Assembly: GCA_016872895.1 (NCBI GenBank)
Contig: VGYT01000003.1
Location: 1 to 50,013 of the forward strand
Origin: Planctomycetota bacterium
Lineage (GTDB): Bacteria > Planctomycetota > Phycisphaerae > FEN-1346
Direction: 5' to 3'
Length of the DNA: 50,013 nt
Shown here: positions 1 to 48,302 of the stretch, piece after piece
Layout of the letters: the number at the start of each line of letters is the position of its first letter
Position numbering within the stretch: the first letter of the stretch is position 1
Position numbers and translations under genes: made by a program
The notes under the pieces: model-generated
Database searches by the model: none
The model's input: only the letters and a program-made list of their open reading frames with translations
Told to the model about the DNA's origin: nothing

Positions 1-282
1 CGGGCCGAGAAGTACCCGTGCTCGAGCGCCGCGGCGCATTGCGGGCGTCGGAAGGACCCGCTTCCGGCCGGGGACCTGGAAACGCGCGGCGTGGTGAGCG
101 ACTGGTCGGCCTGGCTGCGCGTCGCGGACGACAGGGAGGTGCTGAAGGTGCTGCGCATGACGACGCGGACGGGCCGGCCGGCGGGGGATGCGGCGTTCGT
201 CGCGCGGCTGGAGGAACTGAGCGGCCGATTCCTGTCGCCGCGCAAAAGCGGCCGGCCGAGGAAACGGGCAAAACCTGGGTAG
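1..282 (+). mobile_element. C-terminal part of a REP-associated (RAYT / IS200-like Y1) tyrosine transposase; 5' end lies outside the window
   Basis: Frame +1 from base 1 reads RAEKYPCSSAAAHCG...DWSAWL...RTGRPAGD..FV..LE..SGR.LSPRKSGRPRK. This matches the YxWSS and 'TGRPLG..F...LE...GR.L.P.K.GRP' tail typical of these transposases (W appears as C here). A palindromic repeat follows. Confidence 0.7.
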
Positions 283-404: not shown

Positions 405-668
405 CTTGCTCGAGCAGTTGCACGGACGGACCGGCAGTACCGGCCCGTGTCGCCCGTGATGCGGACCGGACGTGGCGCGGCGAATGCCCCGTCTGCGTCT
501 TCCTGAAGTCCTTTCACTCTCGTGACGTAGGGGCACGGCCGGTTTCGGTCCCTCTTGGCACCACGATAGAGGCAACGCCCCGGGCTGACGCCCCCACTCC
601 TCAGTCGCCCTGCTGGTACGTCGCCAGCGCTCGGGCTCCCCCCGCGGTCCTTCCTTCGTCGTAACTTT

Positions 669-715
669 GGCATGGTTCAAAGCCCCCGGCACCGCCGGGG
701 GCTTTGAACCATGCC
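669..715. mobile_element. MITE derivative: two right ends fused head-to-head (perfect 22-bp inverted repeat, 3-nt loop)
   Basis: GGCATGGTTCAAAGCCCCCGGC-acc-GCCGGGGGCTTTGAACCATGCC. The first 33 nt are the reverse complement of the right end of the 48201-48291 element. Flanks are not duplicated. Confidence 0.85.
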
Positions 716-9594: not shown

Positions 9595-9853
9595 CTATCC
9601 GTCCGGCACGGGAATCACGCGGTCCAGCAACGACGGGCGGCCGTCATCGGAAAGCCCGCGCCCGGTCAGCCCGAGTTTCTCCGCCCAGCGGGCGAAACAA
9701 CTGCGGCCGGTCACGGCCCAACGCTGGATTTCCTCGATCACGCTCGATAGCGTAAAGCTGGAAAGGTGTTGACGGAGCGACTCCAAAACGCTCACGATGA
9801 CCGTCTGACGCCGTGCGCCTGCCGCTGTCTTGTTGGTGCGGCCCGTGTCCCGG
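9595..9853 (-). mobile_element. C-terminal fragment of an IS66-family transposase
   Basis: ARDTGRTNKTAAGARRQTVIVSVLESLRQ resembles the IS66 TnpC C-terminal 'R...G..S..GA.....L.SV..T' motif. Its 5' part is replaced by the MITE copy. Confidence 0.6.
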
Positions 9854-9927
9854 GCCCCACGCACCGCGTGGGGATGGATGGTGCGGGCCGTTTATCCCCC
9901 GGCGGCGCCGGGGGCTTTGAACCATGC
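9854..9927 (+). mobile_element. MITE copy lacking the left terminal repeat
   Basis: GCCCCACGCACCGCGTGGGGATGGATGGTGCGGGCCG..ATCCCCCGGCGG.GCCGGGGGCTTTGAACCATGC, nearly identical to the 48201-48291 element. Confidence 0.9.
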
Positions 9928-19092: not shown

Positions 19093-21834
19093 TTATTCGC
19101 CCTTGAACTCGTACGCCCCGATGTCGGTGGCTTTGCCCTGCGGGCGCACCGTGCCGTCCTTGTCGGCGGCGACCTCCTTCAGTGCGGCGCCGGCGTTGAT
19201 GGCCGGGCTGCCGGGCCGCAGGCGGGCATCGCCCGGCCCAATCAGGCCCGGATCAACGTATCTCGAATGGGCCTCGCCGGCAGCCTTCTGATACTCCGCA
19301 AACGTCGTGTACTCCTTGCCGGCGTGCTGCCACTTCGCCGATCCGCTCGTGCTCCAGTAGATGTTGTAGTCCAGCGCCTTCTGGGGCATTGCTTCCGCCG
19401 GCCAGTCGATGGACTGTTCGCAGTCCACGAAGATATTGTTGCGAACGTCGTTGTCCTTACTTTGCGGGCCGAAGCCGACGGCGACCGGGCAGCCGACCAG
19501 CGTGTTGTGGAAAACGAGGTTGGCGGACTGGGGCATGCTGATGGCCCGCTTCTTCCCCTCGCCGTAGAAGACGTTGTTGTACACCCAGTTCTCGTCCCGG
19601 GCCCAGAGGATCAGGTTGCTTTCGTATCTCTTTCGCGGGGTGTTGTCCCAGAACGGCACGGGCTTGCGGAAGGTGTTTCCGTAGATGCGGAAGCCGTCCT
19701 TGCCGGCGCTGCCGCCACCGGCGTACTGGTGGACAGCCGCCCCGCTGATCTCCTCGAACACATTGTGGCGCACCACCACTCCCGGCAGGCTCCCGTACAT
19801 GGCGTGGTTGAACTTGGTCGAGCCGATCTTCTGGAATGTGTTGCTTTCGATCACGCAGTTCTCGGGTATGGGAAGGATGCCCTGGCTGGCGATCGAGCGG
19901 ATGACACAATTGCGGATGGTGATATCGTGGGTCGGGCGATGCAAATGGAACCCGCGAAAGCCGTACTCAAGCGTCAGGCCGTCGAAGATGGTGTGATGGC
20001 AGGAGATCAGTCCGATGATGTTCACCGACGCGGTCCGCATGTCGGAGTTCTTGGGATCGGAGCCGTCCGCCAGCCAGACGTACACGGTCGAGGCGTCCTT
20101 ATCCTCGTAAAATGAGTTCGGATACATCTGATCGGCCGACGGCACGGGGTGATTCGGCCCGTGGCCAACCAACGGCAGTCCGTTGCAGAAGACGTTCAGG
20201 ACACCGGCCTTCGGGTCATAGGGCATGGAGTAGATGGCGCCCTTGACATGTTTCCAACTCGCGGGAGGGACGACCTCGCCGGCCGTCAACACCACCTCGC
20301 CGTCGCCGTACGCCTTGTAAGTGATGGGGGCCTCCTTGGTGCCGGCCTTGCTGAAGGTGAAGGCCGACTGGCTGGGGCCGGTCCTCGAATACACGCCGGC
20401 CCTGATGCGGACCGTGTCGCCCCGCTCGACGGAGTCGGCCGCCTTCTTGAGCGTTGCCCAGGGGCGATCTTCGGTTCCGGGATTGTCGTCATTTCCGTTG
20501 GGCGCGACGAAGTAGGTGACCGGATCGCGCGGCGGCAACGGCTGTTCTATTTCCGTCGGGTCGTTGGCAACGAAGGCCCCGACCTGGAATTCCGGCCGCC
20601 GCGCCCAGGACTCGGGGGCGCGGGGACGCGCTACGCCGTCCTTGCCCGCCTCCATCACGGCGCCGACGCCGGCCGGAACGGGGCTGCCGTCCTTCAGACG
20701 GAAGTCGCCCTTCTCCGGATCGACGAACATCGGATCGCCCTCGGTGAAGTTGTTGGATACGACCGGATCAGTGTTGGTTGCGGCGCGAGCCCCGCCTCGT
20801 CCGCCCGTCGCGCCGCCTCGTCCGGTCGGCTGGCCACCCCTTTCGGTGCTCTTGTCTCCCTGTTCGGGTTTCCTATCCCCGAACTCTGCAATCCCGCTGT
20901 TTCCGCCGACAATGATGTTGTTCTTGATCTCGGCGTTTGCAGTGTACTGGACATCGAGCCCCAACTTATTGTTGTGGAGGGTGTTGTTGTAGAACTTGGT
21001 GCCCGCGCCGCGGACCCAGCAGCCGATGGGATTGTCGGTAAAGACGTTATTGTAAGCCACGTTGCGGTTCCCGGTGCCGATGATTCCTCCCGCGGTCTCG
21101 TTGTGGTGCGAGTAATTGTTGCGGATGATGCTGTTGTCGGCGCGCTTGGGAGCCGTTGCGTAGATGTGGATGCCGAACCCCTTATTGTAGGAGAACTCGC
21201 AGCCGTCGATGACGTTGTTGTCCGTGCCGGTGTAAATGCCGTGGTGCAGGCGGGTCGTGCCGTTGTGGTGGACCTTCAGGTTGATGAACTCGCACTGATT
21301 GCCCGACGACAGGACGCCGGAACAGTAGCCGTTCGTCATCGTGCAATTCTCGACGCGGATGTGGTGCGGCACCGGGTCGCTGCCCCAGATCACCAGCGTG
21401 TGCTGGTGGATCTTGGCGTCGCCGTTGTGCCCGTCGAGGATCAGCCCCCGCAGCGTGATGTAACATTTCCCCTTGATGCTGACGACGCTGTCCTGACTCG
21501 TACCCGATTGCGGGGCGGGCCGGATGGTAACAACCTCATCCTTATAGTTCGACACCGTGACGCGGGCCTCGGGCGCGCCCGAGGGGATGGTGTCTTTGGG
21601 ATATTCGGCGTAGGCGCCGCCGCGGATGTAAAGCGTGTCGCCGGGCTTCAGTTGCTGCGTGGCATGGATGAGCGTCAGCCACGGCGAATCGATCGTCCCC
21701 TTGTTGGCGTCGTTTCCGCCATCGGCCAGACCATCGCCGCCCTTGTCATCGACATAGTAGTCGGCGGCAGGCGCCGGCGCGGCAAGGCAGAACATCAGCG
21801 ACAGCGCGGTTAAGGCAATCGCTCTCACGTACAT
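19093..21834 (-). CDS. Secreted protein with two DUF1565/right-handed beta-helix modules (pectate-lyase-like fold)
   Basis: Signal peptide; two 'Y.V...G.D.N.GT...PW.T' starts; Asn-rich beta-helix repeats; DIGAYE end. Confidence 0.85.
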   Translation of the reverse strand: MYVRAIALTALSLMFCLAAPAPAADYYVDDKGGDGLADGGNDANKGTIDSPWLTLIHATQQLKPGDTLYIRGGAYAEYPKDTIPSGAPEARVTVSNYKDEVVTIRPAPQSGTSQDSVVSIKGKCYITLRGLILDGHNGDAKIHQHTLVIWGSDPVPHHIRVENCTMTNGYCSGVLSSGNQCEFINLKVHHNGTTRLHHGIYTGTDNNVIDGCEFSYNKGFGIHIYATAPKRADNSIIRNNYSHHNETAGGIIGTGNRNVAYNNVFTDNPIGCWVRGAGTKFYNNTLHNNKLGLDVQYTANAEIKNNIIVGGNSGIAEFGDRKPEQGDKSTERGGQPTGRGGATGGRGGARAATNTDPVVSNNFTEGDPMFVDPEKGDFRLKDGSPVPAGVGAVMEAGKDGVARPRAPESWARRPEFQVGAFVANDPTEIEQPLPPRDPVTYFVAPNGNDDNPGTEDRPWATLKKAADSVERGDTVRIRAGVYSRTGPSQSAFTFSKAGTKEAPITYKAYGDGEVVLTAGEVVPPASWKHVKGAIYSMPYDPKAGVLNVFCNGLPLVGHGPNHPVPSADQMYPNSFYEDKDASTVYVWLADGSDPKNSDMRTASVNIIGLISCHHTIFDGLTLEYGFRGFHLHRPTHDITIRNCVIRSIASQGILPIPENCVIESNTFQKIGSTKFNHAMYGSLPGVVVRHNVFEEISGAAVHQYAGGGSAGKDGFRIYGNTFRKPVPFWDNTPRKRYESNLILWARDENWVYNNVFYGEGKKRAISMPQSANLVFHNTLVGCPVAVGFGPQSKDNDVRNNIFVDCEQSIDWPAEAMPQKALDYNIYWSTSGSAKWQHAGKEYTTFAEYQKAAGEAHSRYVDPGLIGPGDARLRPGSPAINAGAALKEVAADKDGTVRPQGKATDIGAYEFKGE

Positions 21835-23135: not shown

Positions 23136-24632
23136 CTACTTCGCATTCGCTCGGTATTCATACGCCCCGATGTCGCAGGCGGCGCCCTGCGGCCGGGCGG
23201 CGCCGTCCTTGTCGGCGGCGACCTCTTTCAGCGCGACGCCGGCGTCGATGGCCGGGCTGCCCGCCTTCAGGTGCGCATCGGCTGGACCCGCAAGGAGGGG
23301 ATCAACGCAGCGCGAATGAGTCTCGCCGGCGGCCTTCTGATACTCGTCGAACGTCAGATACGCGGCCCCGTCGCGCTCCCACCTGGGCGCCCCGGAGGCG
23401 TTGTAGTAAAGGTTGTAGTCCAGCGTCTGAGGCATCGCGTTGGCGGGCCAGATCAGGAAAGACCTCGGAGCATCCTGAACGATGTTGTTCAGCACACGGT
23501 TCCCCGCCTTGCCATTGTGGAATGAGACGGCACTCCTGGAACCTATGAAGGTGTTGTGGGTGACAAGGTTGTTGACCGAATTCAGGCTGATGCCGGCGCG
23601 CTTCCCCTCGCCGTAGAAGACGTTGTTGAAGATCCTGTTGCCGCCTTCGCCCCACGCGATGATGTCAACGTAGTAGGCGCCGCCGGAAGGACTGGATCGC
23701 TGGGTCATGCGTCGGGGCTTGCGGAAGACGTTGCCCGAGAACTCGCAGCCCCCGCCCGCCGGCGGTTCGCCCTGGTGGAACTGATGGATGCCCGCCCCCG
23801 CGATCTCCTCAAACACGTTGTTGCGGATGATGGTCCCCGGCCGCGAGCCGTAGATGCCGTGCTCGTACTTATTGGAGCCGATCATCTGGAACAGGTTGTT
23901 CTCGATGACGCAGTCCCCGGCCACCGGCTGTATGCCCTGGGAGGCGATGGAACGGATGATGCATCTTCTAATGGTGATATGGTGGGTCGTTTTGCCCTGG
24001 TCCTTGATCCCGTTGAAGCCGTACTCCACGGCCAGGCCGTCGAAGACGCTGTAGTGGCATTCGCGCAGGCTGATCACGTGCCCCGGCGCGACCCGCATCC
24101 GGGAGTTTTTCGGGTCCGAGCCGTCCTCGAGCCACACGTAAAGCGTCTGGCCCGACACGTAGAAAGAGTTTGGAATCATATCATCAACCGAGAATATTGT
24201 GGCCCGGTCGCCCGGCGCGTGCAGCGGCGCGGCGTTGCGGAACGCGGCCACGGCCCCCCGGCTGATGGGGGTGGAGTAGATACTGCCCTTCACGTGCGTC
24301 CAGCCGTCGGCCGGGAGCGCCGACGAATTGGTGATTCGCACCTCGCCGTCGCCGTACGCCTGGTAGGTGATGGGCTTCTCCGCCGTGCCGGCCTGCCTGA
24401 CGGTCAGCGTCGGCCCGACGAAGTACTCGCCCGCCTTGATCCGCACCGTGTCGCCCTCTTGAACGGACGCCACAGCCTTCTGGAGCGTTTTCCACGGCGC
24501 CGCCTCCGTGCCGGGGTTGGAGTCGTTGCCCCCCGGCGCCACGACGTAGGTGGCGGCAATGGCCGCGTGGCCCGAAGCCAGCAGGAAGAGAATCACGGGC
24601 AGTACTGTGCAAACTGGGGTTCTTTTCAGCAT
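23136..24632 (-). CDS. Secreted DUF1565/right-handed beta-helix protein, paralogous to the C-terminal half of 19093-21834
   Basis: YVVAPGGNDSNPGTEAAPWKT, CIIRSIASQGI, KEVAADKDG..RPQG..CDIGAYE. Confidence 0.85.
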   Translation of the reverse strand: MLKRTPVCTVLPVILFLLASGHAAIAATYVVAPGGNDSNPGTEAAPWKTLQKAVASVQEGDTVRIKAGEYFVGPTLTVRQAGTAEKPITYQAYGDGEVRITNSSALPADGWTHVKGSIYSTPISRGAVAAFRNAAPLHAPGDRATIFSVDDMIPNSFYVSGQTLYVWLEDGSDPKNSRMRVAPGHVISLRECHYSVFDGLAVEYGFNGIKDQGKTTHHITIRRCIIRSIASQGIQPVAGDCVIENNLFQMIGSNKYEHGIYGSRPGTIIRNNVFEEIAGAGIHQFHQGEPPAGGGCEFSGNVFRKPRRMTQRSSPSGGAYYVDIIAWGEGGNRIFNNVFYGEGKRAGISLNSVNNLVTHNTFIGSRSAVSFHNGKAGNRVLNNIVQDAPRSFLIWPANAMPQTLDYNLYYNASGAPRWERDGAAYLTFDEYQKAAGETHSRCVDPLLAGPADAHLKAGSPAIDAGVALKEVAADKDGAARPQGAACDIGAYEYRANAK

Positions 24633-31798: not shown

Positions 31799-31982
31799 CG
31801 GCGCCTTGCCAATTCCCCCGCGCCCTCGGGAAACGCAAGATGACGCCCTGACCACATTGTCCGGAACATTCCTTTTCCCAGCCGCCCCCGTTGGTTGACG
31901 CAAGCGCGTTACCCGCCGTTCAGCGGGGCCGCCGCCCGCAGGCGGCTGAACATGCAGGGGTCCTGGCCGCCGCGAGAAAAGC

Positions 31983-32035
31983 AAGGAGAATGTTGAATAT
32001 TGAATATTCAATATTTCACATTCAACATTCTCCTT
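31983..32035. repeat. AT-rich palindromic element, copy 1 (16-bp outer IR, internal 20-bp palindrome); possible bidirectional terminator
   Basis: AAGGAGAATGTTGAAT...ATTCAACATTCTCCTT with AATATTGAATATTCAATATT (31996-32015). It lies between convergent genes and contains the sulfatase stop codon. Confidence 0.85.
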
Positions 32036-33615
32036 CTCTTTTCCCCCTGCACGCCGGGGCCGTAAGCGGGGTTGGGCTTCGGGAGGACCGCACCGGAGTC
32101 CTTCAGGAATCCTTCGATGAGGGCATCGAGTTCCTTCACCCGGTCGGGCATCTCGTCGGCGAGGTTGGCGGTCTCGCCGACGTCGGTCTTGAGGTTGTAC
32201 AACTCGTAACGGTGGGCGAAGTTCGGGCCGTCGTGGAAGATGCGGATGAGTTTCCAGTCGCCCTTGCGCACATAGACCGACGGCAGCGCCCCCGTGGCGG
32301 GCGTTGAGTGGGGGAAGAAGCAGAAGATAGCCTCGCGCGGCAGGCGGTCCGCCCCGCGCAGCACGGGCACTATGCTCGTGCCGTCGAACTTCAGCCCTTC
32401 CCTGGCCTTAAGGTCGAGCATGTCGAGGATCGTCGGGTAGAAGTCGATGCTCTGGATAACGGCGTCGCTCTTTGCGCCGGGCTTCACCTGGCCGGGCCAG
32501 ATGACGATGCACGGCACGCGTGTGCCGCCCTCGTAGATCGTGGCCTTCCCGCCGCGGAGGGGGGCGTTGCTCGTGATCGGGATGCGCGTGAGTTCGTCTT
32601 CGTTGCCCGTGCCCTTGTGCCCGGTCCAATGGACGCCGCCGTTATCGGAGAAGAAGACGACGATGGTGCTCTCGGCCAGGCCGAGTTCGTCGAGCGCGTC
32701 GAGGAGGCGCCCGACGGCGTCGTCCATGCTCCGGACCATGGCAGCATAAAGCGCGTTGCGCTGGGGGTTCTTCGGGTCGGCCTTAGTGCGATATTTCTCG
32801 ATATACTCCTTCTTGGCGTCGAACGGCGAGTGGACCGAGAAGCACCAGTAGGTCATGAAGAACCGGCGGTCCTTGTTCTCCTTGAGGAACTTCACGGCCT
32901 CGGCGGCCATGCGGTCTTCGATGTGCTCGCCCGGCGGGCCCGTGAAGTTCAACCTGGCCGGGAACTTCCACGGCGCGATGTAACTTCCGGCGGGGCCGGG
33001 GCCGCCCCAGTGCGGCACGTCCGCGTCGTAACCCTGGTGGAGCGGGTCGTACGGCTCCTGCCCCAGGTGCCACTTGCCGAAGTGGCCCGTGCGGTAGCCG
33101 GCATCGTGCAGGGCCTCGGCCAGGGTGCAGTACTCGTGCTTCAGGCGCGTGGCGCTCGCGCAACTGAGGACCTTCACCTCGGGCGAGCCGCGCTCGCCGA
33201 CGGTTTCCTCGAACTTCTCCTCCGGCAGATGGCAGGCCGGCGCGGTGATGCCGATGCGGGCGGGCCAAAGGCCCGTCTGGATGCTCGCCCGGGTGGGCGA
33301 ACAGAGCGGGTTGGCCGCATAGGCGTTGGTGAACATCATGCCGCGCTTGGCCATGCGCTCGACGTTCGGCGTTTCGTAGAACGTGCTGCCGTAGAGCGAC
33401 GTGTCGCGCCAGCCGAGGTCGTCGGCAAGGATGAAGAGAAGGTTCGGCCTGCTCGCGGGCGGCGCGGCGGCCGCGTCGCCGGGGGGTGCTGTGCTTTCGC
33501 TTGCGAAAGCATGGGCCCGGCGCCCGGCGACCATGCTTTCGCGAAGGCGCGAAAGCATGGCCCCCGCGGCGGCCGCCGCTGCGCCCGCCGCGATGAGAAA
33601 TTCGCGTCGGTCCAC
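32008..33615 (-). CDS. Tat-exported Cys-type sulfatase
   Basis: RBS GGAGG plus GTG 33615; [34 protein letters not shown]. Confidence 0.9.
33485..33564 (-). repeat. 80-bp REPIN-like double hairpin inserted in frame in the sulfatase signal region
   Basis: Ungapped 69/80 match (hand count) to the intergenic 38694-38773 element; translated as [27 protein letters not shown]. Confidence 0.85.
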
Positions 33616-33616
33616 G

Positions 33617-35071
33617 TTACGGATTGCCTCCGCCCTTTTTCTGTTTCGCCTTGGCCGCCTTGGGCTTTTCACCTTGCGGCTGCCTGGAGAAAAAGTCCAG
33701 GTTCACTTCCGCCGGCCTCGGATTGGCAACTTCCAGCGGCAGCGTGTCGCCGAACCGCTTCTGCTCGGCGGCCATGAGCGCCATCAGTTCTTTCACCTTC
33801 TCGGCGTGGGCCGGGGCGCCGGCGAGGTCCTTGATCTCGCGCGGGTCGGCCTGGAGGTCGAAAAGTTGGGTCTTGTTGACCTGGGGGTACCGGATGAGTT
33901 TCCACTGCCCGCGACGGACGGCGCGCTGGAACTCCTTGTACCCGAGGAGGACCGCGTCGCGGACGCCCTCGGCCTTGCCCTGCATGACGGCAAGGAGGCT
34001 CTTGCCGTCGATCTGGGCGGGGGCCTTTGCGCCGGTGAGTTCGCAAATCGTCGGGTAGATGTCGAAATGGTACGCGAGGGCGTCGGACGCCTTCCCCTGC
34101 GGCACGCCCGGTCCCGCGAAGATGACGGGCACTTTCATCGAGTCCTCGTAAAGGTTCTGCTTGCCCATGAGGCCGTGGCTGCCGATGGCCACACCCTGGT
34201 CGCCGGTGAAAACGAAGATGGTGTTGTCGAACTCTCCGACGTCCTTAAGGGCCTGGAAGATGCGGCCGATCTGGGCGTCGAGGCAGGTGATGTCGGCGTA
34301 GTAGTCGCGGAGTTCGCGGCGGACGGCATCCTCGGTGCGCGGCCAGGGCAGGAGCCTCTCGTCGCGGACGAGAAGTTCGCCGTTATCGAAGGGGTGGAAC
34401 GGCAGATAGTTCGGCGGCAGGGGCATCTTCGCCACATCGTACCTGTCGAGGAACTCCTTCGGGGCGACCCGCGGGTCGTGCGGATGAGGCGGCGCAAGGT
34501 GCATGAAGAACGGCTGCGCTGCGCCGGCGTCCCGCTGCTTCTTCCACTCCTGGAGGTAGGCGATGACGCCGTCGGCCATCTCCTTGCCGGGAACAACGCC
34601 CTCCCCCTTGCGGTTGTCGAAGTTCTCCGACTCGAAGACCTTCAGGACCGGCGTATCGTTGTTGCCGGCCTTGCCGAGGAAGAACGTGGCGTAGCCGGCC
34701 TCGTTCATCGTCTTCGGGAAGTTCTGCTCCTGCCACTGCTCCCTGAATCGCGGCGCAAGCCAGGAGCGGCCCCTGAGGATCATCTGCCGCGCGGGCAGGC
34801 ACACCGCCCCGCTGTATCCGCCCTGGCAGTAGGCCTGGCGGAAGGTGAAGCCGCGGTTAACGAGGGCGTCGAGGTTCGGCGTCTGGATGTGCGGGTTGCC
34901 GAGGGCGGCGATGGTGTCGCCGCGCTGATCGTCGGTCAGCAGCACGACGACGTTCGGCCGCCGGCGCGGGCCGGCCTCCGCCCCGCGGAGCGCTCGCGGC
35001 AGCGCCATCGCCGCCGCACCCATGCCGAGGCGCTTCAGGAACTCGCGCCGCTTGACGTTCTGGATATCCAT
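33617..35071 (-). CDS. Tat-exported sulfatase (choline-sulfatase-like)
   Basis: [45 protein letters not shown]. Confidence 0.9.
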
Positions 35072-35190
35072 GCGTTCTCCCTTCTTCCAGATGACTCCGT
35101 AGCGCTGCCCATCCTCGCCGGATAGAACGGCCCGTTACGCTCCGTGTCGGCCGGGCCGACGGTTGCCGCCCTGCGGCCGCGGACGGGGCG

Positions 35191-36693
35191 TCACTGCTTT
35201 CTCTTCGCCTTGGCCTTGGCCGGCTTGTTCGCCTGGCCCTCGACCTTCTCGTCGGAGGCGTCTTCGCCGCGCCCCGACCCCTGGCGCGACTTGGCCTTGA
35301 GTTCCGTTTCCATGCCCTTGTCGCCCTGCTGCGCCATCCAGGCATCGAGTTCGCGGGCGAGGCGGGCCTTGATGTCGGCGAACTTCGGGTCCTCGGCCAG
35401 GTTCTTCATGTCGTACGGGTCGGCCTGGAGGTCGTAGAGTTCCTCGGCGGGCCGGTGCGAGAGCCACTTGACCCATTCGGCCAGCCGCGGGTCTTTCACG
35501 GCATCCTCTTCCCAGGATTTGAAAATGGCCGTGCCGTGGATTCCGGCAATCCAGTACGTGTTGCTCGGCGCAAGGTTGCGAACCAGTTTGTAGCGCCCAT
35601 CGCAGACCGAGCGCATCGGGTACGGCTCCTTGTAGCCGATGATGCCCACGGTGGTGTGCTGCGCGAAGACGTAATCGCGGAGCCTGTCGGCCTTGCCGAG
35701 CAGCACCGCCAGGAAACTGCGGCCGTCGAAGCCGCGGCTGCCGTTGGCGTCGGGGCAGCCGGTGTCGATCTTCGTCGGGTCGGCGCCGGCGGCTTCGAGG
35801 AACGTTGGCGGCACGTCAACGTACTGCATGAGCGCATCGCTGGCGGAGCCGGGCCTGATCTTGCCCGGCCATCGGGCGAATGTGGCGACCCGGATGCCGT
35901 TGTCGTAGAGCGACCACTTGCCGCCGCACGGGAACGAACTGCCTTGCTCGCTCACGAAGAGAACGAGCGTGTTATTGGCCTGGCCGGATTCCTCGACCGC
36001 CTTCAGACACGCGCCCACTTGCGTGTCGAGTTGCGTGATCTCGGCGTAATATTCCGCGAGGTTCTTGCGGGTCACGGCGTTGTCGTGCAGGTACGGCGGG
36101 ATCTTGAGGACGTCGGGCCTGTGAAGGTCCCGCGGACCGCGGGTCCAGGGCGAGTGCGGGTCGTGCGACGCCAAGACCGCCAGCCAGGGCTGCGATCTGT
36201 CGCGCGTGATGAAGGCGGCAAAGGCCTCGGCGTTGTCGGGGCTGGAGTGGATGTACTCCCACGGAAACGTGGCCGGCGGCCCGACGTGCGTCTTGCCCTG
36301 CAAGCCCACGCGGTACCCCAGCGCCTTCAGGTGCGTGAAGATGCTGGCCGTGCCGTCGTAGGCCCGCGTGTGGTTCGGGTACGCGCCGCTTCGGACGGGG
36401 AACAGGCCGGTGTAGAGCGCGTGGCGGCAAGGCGAGCAGGTGGGCGCCGGCGTGTACATGGCGCGCAGCGTCATGCCGTCGCGCGCCAGGCGGTCGATGT
36501 TCGGCGACTTGACGTCGGGGTTGCCCATGCAGCCGAGGTCGTGCAGGTTCAGGTCGTCGGCAATCAGGAGGAGAAAGTTGGGCCGCGCGCCCGTCGGCGC
36601 TGCCGCCCGGGACCACCGCGGGAGCACGAGCGCCGCCGCGCCCACGGCCGCATATCTCAGGAAGTCCCGCCGCTTGACGGTTTGGGCACCCAT
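35191..36693 (-). CDS. Tat-exported sulfatase (sulfamidase-like)
   Basis: KRRDFL, PNFLLLIADDL, CSPCR, GKTH, RPAEELYDL..DP; RBS AAGGAG. Confidence 0.9.
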   Translation of the reverse strand: MGAQTVKRRDFLRYAAVGAAALVLPRWSRAAAPTGARPNFLLLIADDLNLHDLGCMGNPDVKSPNIDRLARDGMTLRAMYTPAPTCSPCRHALYTGLFPVRSGAYPNHTRAYDGTASIFTHLKALGYRVGLQGKTHVGPPATFPWEYIHSSPDNAEAFAAFITRDRSQPWLAVLASHDPHSPWTRGPRDLHRPDVLKIPPYLHDNAVTRKNLAEYYAEITQLDTQVGACLKAVEESGQANNTLVLFVSEQGSSFPCGGKWSLYDNGIRVATFARWPGKIRPGSASDALMQYVDVPPTFLEAAGADPTKIDTGCPDANGSRGFDGRSFLAVLLGKADRLRDYVFAQHTTVGIIGYKEPYPMRSVCDGRYKLVRNLAPSNTYWIAGIHGTAIFKSWEEDAVKDPRLAEWVKWLSHRPAEELYDLQADPYDMKNLAEDPKFADIKARLARELDAWMAQQGDKGMETELKAKSRQGSGRGEDASDEKVEGQANKPAKAKAKRKQ

Positions 36694-36762
36694 GCGTTGT
36701 CGCTCCTTTAAGGCGGCTCCGCAACAGCGCCGATCCCAGTGCTCTGTCATACGTCAACTGAG

Positions 36763-36842
36763 GGGCGGCATGGTCACCCTGTTGGGTGACCATGTGGCGC
36801 CCTCGGTGCACATGGCCACGCAACAGCGTGGCCATGCCACCC
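36763..36842. repeat. 80-bp REPIN-like element (two inverted REP hairpins)
   Basis: GGGCGGCATGGTCACC-ctgttg-GGTGACCATGTG...CACATGGCCACG-caacag-CGTGGCCATGCCACCC; the two loops are reverse complements of each other. Confidence 0.85.
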
Positions 36843-36942
36843 GGCCACTCATCGTTTCACGTTTGACAGAGCACTCGCCTGGTGGAACGGCCTGCCGCGC
36901 CCGCTATTGCCCGCGCCGGCCTTGCCCGCCTTGCCGCGGCTC

Positions 36943-38598
36943 TTATTTGCCGGCTGCCGATGGCGCCGCATCGCCGGTGGCCGTGATACGGAACTCCTCC
37001 GCCGCGCGGGTCCAGCGTTCGGCCAGATCCCGGACCTTCTCGGGCTGCTTGTCGGCCAGGTTGCTGGATTCCGAGCGGTCGTAGCGCAGGTCGTAGAGTT
37101 CCCACGGCCCGGCAGCGCCGTCGGCCACGAGTTTCCAGTCGCCCACGCGGATGGCGCGATTGCCCGAGTGGCACCACCAGAGATACTCGTGCGCAACCGC
37201 CCCGTCGCTCGCCAAGGCCGGCACAAGACTTACGCCGGGCGGCGGCGGAACGGGCTTGCCTTCCCACTGCTCCGGCCGGCGGCCGCCGGCCAGTTCCAGC
37301 ATCGTCGGCGCCAGGTCGATGAAGTGGCACACGTCGCGACGCCACTCGCCGCGCGCCCGGATGCCCGCGGGCCAATGGACGATGAGCGGCGACGAAATGC
37401 CCCCCTCGTGCACCCACACCTTGTGGAGCCTGAGCGGCGTGTTGCACGCCGTGGACCAGCCCGGCCCGAGGCAGAGATACGACTTCGCCGAGCCCGGCGT
37501 CGCGGCGGGGTCGTGCCCGTCGCCCCGGATCATCTGTTCGGCGCTGGCCCCGTTGTCGGAGACGAAGAAGAGGACCGTGTTCTCGCAGGCGTTCATCGCC
37601 TTGAGTTGATCCAGGACGCGGCCGATCTCGCGGTCGACGCGGTCGATCATCGCGGCGTGGATGGCCATCTTGGTCGCCTGAAACCGCTTCTGCTCGTCCG
37701 TCAGTTGCTCCCACGGGATCGCCTTCGGGACCTCGCCCGGCCCAATCCGTTTCTGCATGTCTTCCGGCTTGAGGTTCCAGCCGGGTATGCTGTCCGGGTC
37801 GGGCTTCGACAGCGGGCAGTTGATGAGGCCCAACTCGGTCATCCGCTTCCAGCGCTTCTGGCGGATGGCATCCCATCCTTCCAGGTAGCGGTCGCGATAG
37901 CGGTCAATGTCCTCCCGGAGCGCCTGGATGGGGAAGTGCGGCTCGGTAAATGCCAGGTACTGGAAGAAAGGACGGTCCGCGTGATTCTCGGCGTGCTCCT
38001 TGAGGTAACGAATGGCGTGGTCCGCAATGGCCGTGCTCGCGTAATAGCCCTCCTCAGGCTTGATGGGTTGGAGCGGCGGGTCGATTGCCGCCATCTTCCT
38101 GGCCGGCAGAAAGTGATGGTCGCTATCGCTGTACTCAAACGCGCGGTCAAAGCCGCCCTGCTGCGGCGTGCCGTCCACATGCCACTTTCCGGAGTGATAG
38201 GTCCGGTAGCCCAGGGGCTTGAGCATCTCCGGCAACAGCCGCGCCCACGCGGGGCGCTTCCCGCCCGCGCCCCCGGCCAGGCCCGGCATCGCATCGCGGC
38301 GGACCTGCTGCGCATAGTAGCCGGTCAGGATGCAGGCCCGCGAGGGCCAGCACCGGGCCGTGGAGTAGCACTGCGTGAACCGGATGCCGCCGGCCGCAAG
38401 GCGGTCCAGATTGGGCGTGGCAATCTCGCCGCCGTAGCAGCCGGCGTCGGAGAATCCCATGTCATCCATCACGATCACGAGGAAGTTCGGCTTGCGGGAC
38501 GGGGCCGTCCCGGCCGCCGCCCGCAGCGCCCACGACGGCACCGCCACCGCGCACGCCCCAAGGCCGGCGAGTTTCAGAAAGTCGCGCCGCGTGGTCAT
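36943..38598 (-). CDS. Tat-exported arylsulfatase
   Basis: TRRDFLK, DDMGFSD.GCYGGEI.TPNLD, CWPSR, GKWH, SDNGAS. Confidence 0.92.
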   Translation of the reverse strand: MTTRRDFLKLAGLGACAVAVPSWALRAAAGTAPSRKPNFLVIVMDDMGFSDAGCYGGEIATPNLDRLAAGGIRFTQCYSTARCWPSRACILTGYYAQQVRRDAMPGLAGGAGGKRPAWARLLPEMLKPLGYRTYHSGKWHVDGTPQQGGFDRAFEYSDSDHHFLPARKMAAIDPPLQPIKPEEGYYASTAIADHAIRYLKEHAENHADRPFFQYLAFTEPHFPIQALREDIDRYRDRYLEGWDAIRQKRWKRMTELGLINCPLSKPDPDSIPGWNLKPEDMQKRIGPGEVPKAIPWEQLTDEQKRFQATKMAIHAAMIDRVDREIGRVLDQLKAMNACENTVLFFVSDNGASAEQMIRGDGHDPAATPGSAKSYLCLGPGWSTACNTPLRLHKVWVHEGGISSPLIVHWPAGIRARGEWRRDVCHFIDLAPTMLELAGGRRPEQWEGKPVPPPPGVSLVPALASDGAVAHEYLWWCHSGNRAIRVGDWKLVADGAAGPWELYDLRYDRSESSNLADKQPEKVRDLAERWTRAAEEFRITATGDAAPSAAGK

Positions 38599-38693
38599 GG
38601 TTGGATTCCCTTTTTTCGATGATCGTGCTGATTGGCCGGAACCGGCACGCTCCGTTTCGGCATGCGAATCTCGCGGCATCCGCGTCGCCGGAG

Positions 38694-38773
38694 GGTGCCA
38701 TGCTTTCGCGCCTTTGCGAAAGCATGGCCGCCGGCCGCAGGACTCATTCTTTCGCAAGCGAAAGCATGTCACC
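38694..38773 (+). repeat. 80-bp REPIN-like double hairpin (intergenic copy)
   Basis: GGTGCCATGCTTTCGCG..GCGAAAGCATGG...CTTTCGC-aa-GCGAAAGCATGTCACC. Confidence 0.85.
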
Positions 38774-38788
38774 GGCCGGGTGCAAAAA

Positions 38789-38847
38789 GGCAATGAGAAT
38801 GTTGAATATTGAATATTCAATATTTCACATTCAATATTCTCCTTGCC
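38789..38847. repeat. AT-rich palindromic element, copy 2
   Basis: GAGAATGTTGAATATTGAATATTCAATATTTCACATTCAA.ATTCTCCTT, nearly identical to 31983-32035; just downstream of the sulfatase stop at 38873. Confidence 0.85.
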
Positions 38848-38872
38848 GTTTGCCGGCCCACGGCGGCCGGGA

Positions 38873-40675
<1,803 letters not shown>

Positions 40676-45676: not shown

Positions 45677-45928
45677 GCGGGTATTGTATCAGAGGCAAAC
45701 TTAATCGGCATGGTGCTTTCGCTTCAGGCGCGTACAATGCCAGTGTACGCTACGGCAGGGGCGCGGCAGTTTGTCGGGGAGATGCCGGGCCCCTCGGATA
45801 GCCGATAACAGGAGTACCAGGAAGCGGCACGCAACCGCGCGGTGGGTCTCCGCACACACCGCGCTACGCGCGGCAAGGCGCCCTTGCGCGTACGGCCGGT
45901 CTGCCGCCCACAACCGCGCGGCGAGTAC

Positions 45929-46002
45929 GGTTCAAACAAGCCCCACGCACCGCGTGGGGATGGATGGTGCGGGCCGATCATCCCCCGGCGGTGCCGGGGG
46001 CT
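45929..46002 (+). mobile_element. MITE copy with degenerate terminal repeats
   Basis: GGTTCAAACAAGCCCCACGCACCGCGTGGGGATGGATGGTGCGGGCCGATCATCCCCCGGCGGTGCCGGGGGCT, identical to the internal part of 48201-48291. Confidence 0.9.
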
Positions 46003-48185: not shown

Positions 48186-48200
48186 CAACTGACAAAAACG

Positions 48201-48291
48201 GGCATGGTTCAAACAAGCCCCACGCACCGCGTGGGGATGGATGGTGCGGGCCGATCATCCCCCGGCGGTGCCGGGGGCTTTGAACCATGCC
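48201..48291 (+). mobile_element. Complete 91-bp MITE with 13-bp TIRs and an 8-bp target-site duplication
   Basis: GGCATGGTTCAAA...TTTGAACCATGCC flanked by CAAAAACG at 48193-48200 and 48292-48299; two internal GC hairpins. Confidence 0.92.
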
Positions 48292-48302
48292 CAAAAACGA
48301 AT

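What the first reader, a model, noticed from the sequence alone, without database searches (positions are those of the whole stretch)
33485..33564. REPIN-like palindrome inserted in frame into a sulfatase Tat signal peptide
Seen: an 80-bp double hairpin, 69/80 identical by hand to intergenic 38694-38773, lies right after [16 protein letters not shown] and adds about 27 residues without a stop. Its translation includes AHAFA, a plausible signal-peptidase site. Known: in-frame palindromic insertions are described for Rickettsia palindromic elements. Inference: a selfish repeat tolerated or co-opted as the signal c-region.
Basis: partly seen in the sequence, partly recalled or inferred. Interest (0 to 1): 0.7.

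Follow-up and report, generated by a model that had tools for sequence, protein, structure and literature searches.

The report
Palindromic repeat inside a sulfatase signal peptide
A small selfish double-hairpin DNA repeat has landed inside the export signal of a sulfatase gene without breaking its reading frame, one of about ten such in-gene copies in this genome, a rare but already described kind of event.

Summary
Window 33484-33565 (minus strand) is an 82-nt double hairpin, 69 of 80 bases identical to the intergenic copy at 38694-38773. It belongs to a dispersed family of 157 loci in this 5.07-Mb genome. It lies in codons 17-44 of a sulfatase gene (32008-33615, minus). The GTG start, ribosome-binding site and twin-arginine motif lie upstream and are conserved in relatives.

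None of the 119 other listed homologs carries the repeat peptide. A metagenome contig from a relative, about 92% identical in a neighbouring contig piece, shows the empty site. There 16 nt coding ALPRWL stand where the window has 85 nt, a net gain of 23 codons. So the repeat replaced the signal's c-region rather than simply adding to it.

The consensus is open in all six frames. Nine further copies sit in frame in other genes. In four of them (TrkH, V-ATPase subunit I, RsmE-like, rhamnosidase) all or most relatives examined lack the insert.

Best reading: a tolerated selfish insertion like the Rickettsia palindromic elements. Co-option of AHAFA as a cleavage site is untested. The link to a REP-associated transposase is weak. 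This is a new member of a known kind.

The parts
33484..33565 (-). REP-like double-hairpin repeat (82 nt), codons 17-44 of the sulfatase. Hairpin A lies at about 33529-33562 and hairpin B at about 33492-33511.
   Evidence: nhmmer profile hit 33484-33564, E 3.8e-19. DNA fold z -6.1. 69/80 identical to the second copy.
33479..33563 (-). The 85 nt that stand where a relative's contig has 16 nt coding (A)LPRWL. Net gain 69 nt, or 23 codons.
   Evidence: table 5c: run X11 has a joint from 33478 to 33564 with 16 other letters between. Run X7 has joints skipping 80-84 nt at the same place (short sides of 21-25 letters).
33613..33615 (-). GTG start codon of the sulfatase. Relatives have ATG at this position.
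   Evidence: The G010 ortholog has ATG here in the same context. Contigs of X7 and X11 read T for C at 33615 on the plus strand, which gives ATG (table 3).
33627..33631 (-). GGAGG ribosome-binding site, 11 nt before the GTG. The stop codon TAA of the upstream sulfatase gene is at 33617-33619.
   Evidence: Read. The same GGCGGAGGC...TAAC context is present in G010.
33566..33612 (-). Codons 2-16/17: twin-arginine n-region (DRREFL) and Ala-rich h-region, upstream of the repeat.
   Evidence: Pfam TAT_signal matches residues 1-18 at 14.6 bits, below the cut-off of 22.7 and similar to the paralogs. The hydropathy peak is like that of P0004.
33556..33558 (-). ATG inside hairpin A (codon 20). It is the start chosen by the gene caller whose protein is on record (516 aa). 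A second in-repeat ATG is at 33532-33534.
   Evidence: P0003 begins MLSRLRES. List of start codons.
32008..33615 (-). Sulfatase gene, 535 aa plus stop. The Sulfatase domain spans residues 57-401 and the CSPTR active-site motif is present.
38693..38773 (+). Second copy of the repeat. It is intergenic, between two same-strand sulfatase genes, 95 nt upstream of the next start.
   Evidence: nhmmer E 2.4e-20.
31977..32057 (.). Unrelated AT-rich palindromic dispersed repeat. It holds the last 11 codons and the stop of the sulfatase.
   Evidence: D16, I2; 24 loci in the genome.

Best explanation
A non-autonomous palindromic repeat inserted into the part of a sulfatase gene that codes for the end of its twin-arginine signal peptide. 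The repeat consists of two hairpins with the same 11-nt stem, CATGCTTTCGC, with a consensus length of 83 nt, and the family has about 157 loci in this genome. Of the original sequence, 16 nt coding the c-region ALPRWL are gone and 85 nt stand in their place, so the frame is kept and the precursor is 23 residues longer. Because the family consensus has no stop codon in any of its six frames, a copy is read through wherever the flanking frame is kept. Copies survive only where the protein tolerates extra residues, such as signal-peptide tails and variable loops.

Shown here: the repeat family, the conserved upstream start, the in-frame read-through, the empty allele in a relative, and parallel in-frame insertions in other genes.

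Inferred: translation still starts at the conserved GTG. The intact n- and h-regions still target the enzyme to the Tat pathway. The insert is neutral or mildly harmful baggage, either removed with the signal or kept as a linker. The enzyme that moves the repeat is unknown; a Y1 (HUH) transposase is the obvious candidate but is not established.
For: Family:
- A regex census finds 191 hairpin units in 150 loci, 41 of them doublets.
- The nhmmer profile finds 157 loci.
- Hairpin B, with up to 2 mismatches, occurs in 14 of 21 genomes of the same taxonomic family and in 0 of 19 outside it. Reversed-pattern controls give 0.
- The exact 30-mer occurs at 60 loci in MAGs labelled Phycisphaerae, Planctomycetia, Planctomycetaceae and 'Anaerolineales'.

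Position in the gene:
- The G010 ortholog (84% identical) has the same upstream stop, GGAGG and start position, and reads MDRCEFLRAAGAAVAAAALRRWPALRTGGAAAAPARKPN without the insert.
- P0004-P0007 (84-90% identical; P0005 79%) begin MNRREF (MNRREFL in three of the four) and also lack it.
- Among 119 listed homologs, 0 carry a repeat peptide in the first 120 residues. In the 52 with an RR motif, the distance from RR to the ILADD motif is 21-44 residues (median 35), against 58 here.

Empty allele: run X11, shows 16 letters in place of 33479-33563.

Not an assembly error: a 798-nt contig of another run (X4) spans 33065-33862 with 1 difference.

Open frames: all six frames of the consensus are open.

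Parallels in other genes:
- Eight ORF-internal copies pass the codon-score test, and the rhamnosidase copy falls just under it.
- Pfam domains are split by or flank the copy in RsmE-like, V_ATPase_I, TrkH and rhamnosidase.
- The insert is absent from 9 of 9 TrkH relatives, 9 of 9 V-ATPase I relatives, 6 of 7 RsmE relatives and 4 of 5 rhamnosidase relatives.

Depletion from genes: of 146 loci not near contig ends, only 5 have coding sequence on the same strand on both sides, and 4 of those 5 are in phase.
Against: - The gene caller behind the public record starts the protein at the ATG inside the repeat (P0003, 516 aa). Nothing here shows which start is used.
- With the insert, 17 polar or charged residues (4 Arg, 1 Glu) separate the h-region from the candidate AFA site. 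As far as I recall, that is longer than usual c-regions, so cleavage or export may be impaired.
- The gene also lacks the roughly 125-150 aa C-terminal domain of its closest homologs and ends inside another repeat. This could mean the gene is decaying.
- The change is not a clean insertion. An 82-83-nt element does not keep the frame by itself, so a deletion of 13-16 nt must be assumed, and its timing is unknown.
- No RNA run holds the locus, so expression is untested.
Confidence: 0.72

Rival explanations
1. The insertion disabled the signal peptide. Translation now starts at the ATG supplied by the repeat (33558 or 33534), which gives a sulfatase without an h-region. The enzyme stays in the cytoplasm, or the gene is on its way to becoming a pseudogene. 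The upstream RR motif and the kept frame are leftovers of a recent event.
For: The gene caller's protein P0003 starts at the in-repeat ATG. The C-terminal domain of the nearest homologs is missing and the ORF ends in an AT-rich repeat. A kept frame is a 1-in-3 chance event, and no frame of the repeat has stops anyway. The start here is GTG where relatives have ATG.
Against: A GGAGG site sits 11 nt before the GTG at the position used by orthologs, and no comparable site is seen before the in-repeat ATG. The catalytic domain is whole, with CSPTR, and its codon score is 0.8-1.05 throughout. Homologs without the C-terminal domain exist (P0010, P0011). Other in-frame copies sit in conserved single-copy genes that must work, such as V-ATPase I, TrkH and RsmE, so read-through of this repeat is normal in this genome.
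Confidence: 0.2
2. The repeat has been co-opted. Its second hairpin, read as AHAFA|SE, now supplies the signal-peptidase site (Ala at -3 and -1) and basic c-region residues that replace the lost ALPRWL. In this way the repeat acts as a ready-made signal-peptide tail.
For: The original c-region is exactly what was replaced. GCTTTCGCA in the stem codes AFA in this frame. Cleavage after residue 38 would give a signal of ordinary Tat length (recalled, not tested). A second copy, the closest relative in the genome (95.7% over 70 nt), sits in the same orientation and frame right after the N-terminal hydrophobic segment of a 1294-aa PQQ/TPR protein, reading [26 protein letters not shown].
Against: No predictor or experiment was available. 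The AFA site lies 17 residues after the h-region. The other in-gene copies use other frames and orientations in cytoplasmic or loop positions, which fits plain tolerance. The ancestral DAAA(A) stretch after the insert is still there. Two cases are too few to show enrichment.
Confidence: 0.12
3. The copy matters as RNA. It places a stable double hairpin 50 nt into the cistron, directly behind the stop of the upstream sulfatase gene. There it protects the upstream message or damps translation of this gene, as described for REPs between genes of an operon.
For: The RNA fold of 33470-33630 gives -92.8 kcal/mol, z -3.9. The upstream gene stops 1 nt before the GTG, within a same-strand array of five sulfatase genes. 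The other window copy sits between two such genes. Di Nocera et al. 2013 report REPs mostly between same-direction or convergent ORFs (PMC3733652, passages read).
Against: No expression data. The position inside a coding sequence is the exception for this family. Translating ribosomes would unfold the hairpins.
Confidence: 0.08
4. Assembly artefact: a chimeric join of two contigs at a shared repeat.
For: The genome is a fragmented assembly of 579 contigs, and the repeat is abundant in the same metagenomes (depth peaks, table 2).
Against: Both flanks belong to one gene and are collinear with the G010 ortholog. An independent contig of run X4 spans the whole element and 400+ nt on one side and about 300 nt on the other, with 1 difference.
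Confidence: 0.02

Closest known systems
Rickettsia palindromic elements (RPE; Ogata et al. 2000, known to me through passages in PMC2229807 and PMC10969869)
   Same: Dispersed palindromic repeats with open reading frames. They are found in frame inside conserved protein genes, where they add a peptide that the host protein tolerates. Most copies of the family are still intergenic.
   Different: The sequence and host are unrelated (a Planctomycetota-like lineage, not Rickettsia). The element is shorter (about 83 nt against about 100-150 nt). Two separate hairpins share one stem. The fraction of copies inside genes is far smaller: about 10 of 157 loci here, against nearly half of the RPEs of three of the ten families in R. 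conorii as quoted in PMC10969869.
REPs and REP dimers found inside genes (Di Nocera et al. 2013, PMC3733652; abstract and passages read)
   Same: Short palindromes, singly or as dimers, mostly between genes. In several species, including Opitutus terrae of the PVC group, dimers inside ORFs encode 20-30 amino acids. That paper also warns that REPs at ORF N-termini may be extragenic because of wrong start calls.
   Different: This family shows neither the GTAG nor the CGTC end tag that defines that paper's two superfamilies (consensus). Here the N-terminal case is backed by a conserved upstream start and an empty allele.
REPIN-RAYT systems (Bertels and Rainey 2011, PMC3116915 and PMC3337134; only listing and abstract starts seen)
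   Same: Doublets of two REPs with a short spacer, hundreds of units per genome, and a distribution that follows a taxonomic family, as expected for vertical inheritance.
   Different: No consistent partner transposase was found. One RAYT-like gene (NCBIfam REP_Tyr_transpos, 65.7 bits, below the cut-off of 80) has one repeat at its stop in this genome. 0 of 11 homolog loci in relatives have one, and of 30 Y1_Tnp loci in five repeat-rich relatives 1 has a repeat, about 1.1 kb from the gene.
Yersinia YPO1552: an exported protein whose signal peptide is partly formed by a MITE (Delihas 2007, as described in PMC2229807; passage read)
   Same: A small mobile repeat contributes residues of a predicted signal peptide through an in-frame fusion.
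   Different: There the repeat supplies hydrophobic residues and seems to create a new small protein. Here it replaces only the tail (c-region) of an existing Tat signal on a conserved enzyme.

Membership tests
REP / REPIN (RAYT-mobilised) | Short imperfect palindrome, high copy number, mostly outside genes | tested here: met
   157 loci. Of 146 loci away from contig ends, 96 have no coding flank within 240 nt, 44 have one, and only 5 have same-strand coding on both sides.
REP / REPIN (RAYT-mobilised) | Two REP units close together forming a doublet with a spacer | tested here: met
   41 doublets among 150 regex loci, with a spacer of about 20 nt. 111 of 288 nhmmer hits are near full length (hits on both strands are counted).
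REP / REPIN (RAYT-mobilised) | A RAYT (Y1/HUH transposase) gene flanked by the same REPs | tested here: inconclusive
   1 of 3 own PF01797 genes (C62) has a half unit and a full hairpin A starting right after its stop, and none upstream. 0 of 11 homolog loci have a repeat within 1.5 kb. 1 of 30 Y1 loci in G001, G005, G015, G017 and G021 has one, about 1.1 kb away.
GTAG- or CGTC-tagged REP superfamilies (Di Nocera 2013) | Conserved GTAG or CGTC tetranucleotide at one end of the palindrome | tested here: not met
   The 83-nt consensus has neither word at its ends. The ends read GGGTGCC and GGCACCC.
MITE | Terminal inverted repeats plus target-site duplication | tested here: inconclusive
   The ends are inverted repeats. 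No recurrent direct repeat is seen beside the 41 aligned doublets by eye, but no formal test was run. At the one empty site known, 16 nt are lost rather than duplicated.
Rickettsia palindromic elements | Sequence family restricted to Rickettsia | tested here: not met
   The family is found in MAGs labelled Phycisphaerae or Planctomycetia, and no Rfam family matches. It works like an RPE but is not one.
Tat (twin-arginine) signal peptide | RR motif followed by a hydrophobic h-region at the N-terminus | tested here: met
   DRREFL followed by [14 protein letters not shown]. The hydropathy peak of 1.3-2.2 is like that of P0004. Pfam TAT_signal scores 14.6 bits, under the cut-off of 22.7, while paralogs in the window score 13.9-26.
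Tat (twin-arginine) signal peptide | Short c-region with an Ala-x-Ala signal-peptidase site | not testable with these tools
   The candidate AFA is at residues 36-38, 17 residues after the h-region. No SignalP or TatP is on hand.
Type I sulfatase (PF00884) | Sulfatase domain with the C-x-P-x-R formylglycine motif | tested here: met
   PF00884 at E 6.6e-58 over residues 57-401. CSPTR is present in the translation.

The most novel reading that the evidence does not exclude
In this lineage the repeat is not just tolerated but serves as a portable signal-peptide tail. In one frame its stem codes Ala-Phe-Ala and its flanks code basic residues. A copy landing behind an h-region would then supply a new signal-peptidase site and Tat-type c-region charges. 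It would have been fixed twice for that reason, in the sulfatase and in the PQQ/TPR protein on C14.
Probability: 0.1. Interest if true: 0.7.

Novelty: new member of a known kind. Interest (0 to 1): 0.42.

Why it matters
This is a clean, well-controlled example of a selfish palindromic repeat read through as protein. The controls are a conserved start, an empty allele and nine sister cases in the same genome. It comes from an uncultivated Planctomycetota-like lineage, where such elements have hardly been described.

It shows that signal-peptide tails and variable loops are the places where such insertions survive.

It has a practical side for annotation. The repeat carries ATG codons that pull gene callers to false starts; the record on file for this gene loses its export signal that way. 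In the first ORF scan, 16 more ORFs were classed as running through copies just upstream of genes.

It also adds a repeat family without the usual end tags and without a clear transposase partner, which is a small open question about how these elements move.

Tried and rejected
- **Rfam.** No family reaches its gathering score on 31800-39000. Only chance-level miRNA-like hits fall on the AT-rich palindromes, plus one weak hit over the repeat.
- **RAYT link.** Searched in this genome and in relatives. No consistent flanking was found, so 'REPIN' in the strict sense is not adopted.
- **REP plus AT-rich composite element.** I asked whether the two repeats that lie side by side at 38693-38866 form one element. 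Of the 24 AT-rich loci, only 2 lie within 200 nt of a REP and 11 have none on their contig. Rejected.
- **Remains of the missing C-terminal domain.** The ORF downstream of the sulfatase stop is not that domain. tblastn finds only a 38%-identical paralog on C229.
- **In-frame copies in relatives.** I searched with the 28-aa repeat peptide. The 5 long open frames I fetched all have non-coding codon scores or lie upstream of the real start. This adds no evidence.
- **PQQ/TPR protein N-terminus against 3 homologs.** The region is too diverged (38-41% identity) to prove an insertion.
- **Expression.** No RNA holder is listed for the locus.
- **Target-site duplication or preferred target.** Not resolved. 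The one empty site shows a replacement, and relatives of the other host genes are too distant for DNA-level comparison.

Full report
**What is there**

The window is a whole 50,013-base contig (C3) of a fragmented genome of 5.07 Mb, 579 contigs and 68.8% G+C. The finding lies in a gene on the minus strand, 32008-33615. This gene is one of five sulfatase genes in a same-strand array, each with a twin-arginine-like N-terminus.

The protein reads [67 protein letters not shown]... It continues as a complete sulfatase domain (PF00884, E 6.6e-58, residues 57-401) with the CSPTR motif.

**The observation**

The element, whose ends I place at 33484-33565 from the family profile, folds as DNA into a perfect 15-bp hairpin and an 8-bp hairpin. 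The energy is -32.8 kcal/mol, z -6.1, and 0 of 200 shuffles do as well. The stem word occurs 7 times in the window against 1.3 expected.

**The family**

- A regex for the hairpin finds 191 units in 150 loci of the genome: 41 doublets and 109 singlets.
- A profile built from the doublets finds 157 loci.
- The 83-nt consensus runs GGGTGCC, stem CATGCTTTCGCG, loop CCGTT, stem, a spacer of about 20 nt, a second copy of the stem around an AA loop, then GGCACCC.
- Hairpin B, with up to two mismatches, occurs in 14 of 21 genomes of the same taxonomic family and in 0 of 19 further relatives. Reversed-pattern controls give 0.
- An exact 30-mer occurs at 60 loci of MAGs labelled Phycisphaerae, Planctomycetia, Planctomycetaceae and 'Anaerolineales'.
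- No Rfam family fits.
- The copies avoid genes. Of 146 loci not at contig ends, 96 have no coding flank within 240 nt, 44 have one, 1 has opposite-strand coding, and 5 have same-strand coding on both sides, 4 of them in phase.

**Is the repeat inside the coding sequence?**

Three lines of evidence say yes.

1. The start. In the nearest genome-borne ortholog (G010, 84% identical) the upstream gene's TAA, a GGCGGAGGC stretch and the start codon stand in the same places, with ATG where the window has GTG. That protein begins MDRCEFLRAAGAAVAAAALRRWPALRTGGAAAAPARKPN. Contigs of relatives in two sediment runs also read ATG at 33613-33615 (table 3).
2. The homologs. P0004-P0007 (84-90% identical; P0005 79%) begin MNRREF (MNRREFL in P0004, P0006 and P0007; MNRREFC in P0005) and go on ...[25 protein letters not shown] or similar. 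Of the 119 other listed homologs, none has a repeat-type peptide in its first 120 residues. In the 52 with a recognisable RR motif, the distance from RR to the ILADD motif is 21-44 residues (median 35), against 58 in the window.
3. The empty allele. A contig of run X11, from a relative about 92% identical in a neighbouring contig piece, joins 33478 to 33564 with 16 other letters between. Read on the minus strand these code (A)LPRWL, exactly as in P0004 (table 5c). Run X7 shows joints skipping 80-84 nt at the same place, though with short sides.

The window therefore has 85 nt where the ancestor had 16, a net gain of 69 nt or 23 codons. An 82-83-nt element does not keep a frame alone, so 13-16 nt of target were lost with or after the insertion. 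What was lost is the c-region of the signal peptide.

**Not an artefact**

Both flanks are collinear with the ortholog. A 798-nt contig of another lake-water run (X4) covers 33065-33862 with one difference.

**Where does translation start?**

The in-frame start codons that keep the sulfatase domain whole are GTG 33615, ATG 33558 and ATG 33534. The next one is at codon 88, inside the domain.

The live rival is a start inside the repeat. The gene caller behind the public record chose ATG 33558 (P0003, 516 aa). I favour the GTG because of the conserved position and the GGAGG site 11 nt upstream. No tool here can decide it.

**The same thing elsewhere in the genome**

The consensus has no stop in any of its six frames. 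An ORF and codon-score screen finds eight copies inside long coding frames. A ninth, in a rhamnosidase gene, falls just under the threshold. The sulfatase copy makes ten.

| Host gene | Contig | Insert absent in relatives |
|---|---|---|
| RsmE-like methyltransferase (domain in two stretches) | C23 | 6 of 7; the seventh has a different insert at the same place |
| V-ATPase subunit I (two stretches) | C34 | 9 of 9; two have a short unrelated extension |
| TrkH (two stretches) | C188 | 9 of 9; a 28-residue insert in a variable loop |
| Alpha-L-rhamnosidase | C60 | 4 of 5; G010 has a partly similar stretch, perhaps an old shared copy |
| TPR membrane protein | C14 | not compared |
| PQQ/TPR protein | C14 | region too diverged to judge |
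| zf-HC2 protein | C97 | not compared |
| GT2 protein | C49 | not compared; weak case |
| GAF protein | C118 | not compared; weak case |

The copies use different frames and both orientations. This is the pattern described for Rickettsia palindromic elements and for intragenic REPs in other bacteria.

**How it most likely works**

Shown: a dispersed, stop-free palindromic repeat; insertion into a gene; loss of 16 nt; a kept frame; intact n- and h-regions (hydropathy as in P0004).

Inferred: the precursor is still made from the GTG and still recognised by the Tat pathway. The 28 repeat-coded residues are either removed with the signal or remain as a linker. The copy persists because signal-peptide tails tolerate almost any sequence.

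The AHAFA|SE site is a fair candidate, because GCTTTCGCA in the stem codes AFA. It lies 17 residues behind the h-region, and I could not run a predictor.

One point speaks for more than tolerance. The closest relative of this copy in the genome (95.7% over 70 nt) sits in the same frame directly behind the N-terminal hydrophobic segment of the PQQ/TPR protein. Two cases prove nothing, so I give co-option about 0.1.

**What moves it**

This is unknown. The genome has three Y1_Tnp genes. One, on C62, resembles REP-associated tyrosine transposases (65.7 bits, below the cut-off of 80). It has a half unit plus a full hairpin A beginning right after its stop codon.

That link is not repeated elsewhere. 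None of 11 homolog loci in relatives has a copy within 1.5 kb. Only 1 of 30 Y1 loci in five repeat-rich relatives has one, about 1.1 kb away. The family also lacks the GTAG or CGTC tags of the published REP superfamilies (PMC3733652, passages read). I therefore call it REP-like rather than a REPIN.

**What is known**

- In-frame palindromic insertions are textbook for Rickettsia (passages in PMC2229807 and PMC10969869).
- Di Nocera et al. 2013 (PMC3733652; abstract and passages read) list intragenic REPs in several species, including a member of the PVC group. Their dimers code 20-30 residues, and the authors warn about false N-terminal cases.
- Delihas describes a Yersinia protein whose signal peptide is partly formed by a MITE (PMC2229807, passage read).
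- My searches turned up no report of such a repeat in a Tat signal peptide or in Phycisphaerae. Three word searches of an open-access library are thin ground for a claim of absence.

**Verdict**

The finding is real and well supported, and it generalises within the genome. Its kind is known. It is a new member of a known kind and of moderate interest.

Noticed in passing
window 31977-32057 and 38786-38866: A second, unrelated dispersed repeat: an AT-rich palindrome of about 60 nt with 24 loci in the genome. The sulfatase ORF ends inside it (last 11 codons and stop). The closest homologs carry about 125-150 more C-terminal residues that are not found downstream. A copy also overlaps the stop of the RsmE-like ORF on C23.
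   Followed up: partly
window 666-701, 9836-9927, 45922-46002, 48199-48294: Other G+C-rich hairpin repeat families (GCCCCACGCACCGCGTGGGG..., CCCCCGGCGGTGCCGGGGG). Similar hairpins flank two other Y1 transposase genes of the genome (C207, C276).
   Followed up: no
window 10-267 and 210-404: A fragment similar to the C-terminal part of the Y1 transposase (42% identical over residues 135-219), next to two 86-nt direct repeats (99% identical) at the contig start.
   Followed up: no
L002 (G010:C235), ortholog N-terminus: The closest genome-borne ortholog reads MDRCEFL, with Arg-Cys instead of the twin arginine. Its genome has no copy of the repeat's hairpin B.
   Followed up: no
window 33556-33558; 16 further loci of G000 ('Nprox'): The repeat carries ATG codons (CATG at each stem end). 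The public protein record for this gene starts at one of them. In the first ORF scan, 16 more ORFs were classed as running through copies just upstream of genes, so false starts are likely in annotations of this lineage.
   Followed up: partly
L163 (G001:C283), RsmE-like gene: One relative has a different, low-complexity insert of about 35 residues at the very place where G000 carries the repeat. The site looks like a hot spot or simply a tolerant loop.
   Followed up: no
window 19109-20518 and 23158-24552: Two stretches of about 1.4 kb that are 71-76% identical, 4 kb apart. They are probably paralogous genes.
   Followed up: no
L171 (G010:C96), rhamnosidase: At the site of the G000 repeat insert, G010 has a partly similar stretch (..PFARPRAGVPRGTAAL..) although its genome has no intact hairpin B. 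This may be a decayed shared insertion.
   Followed up: no
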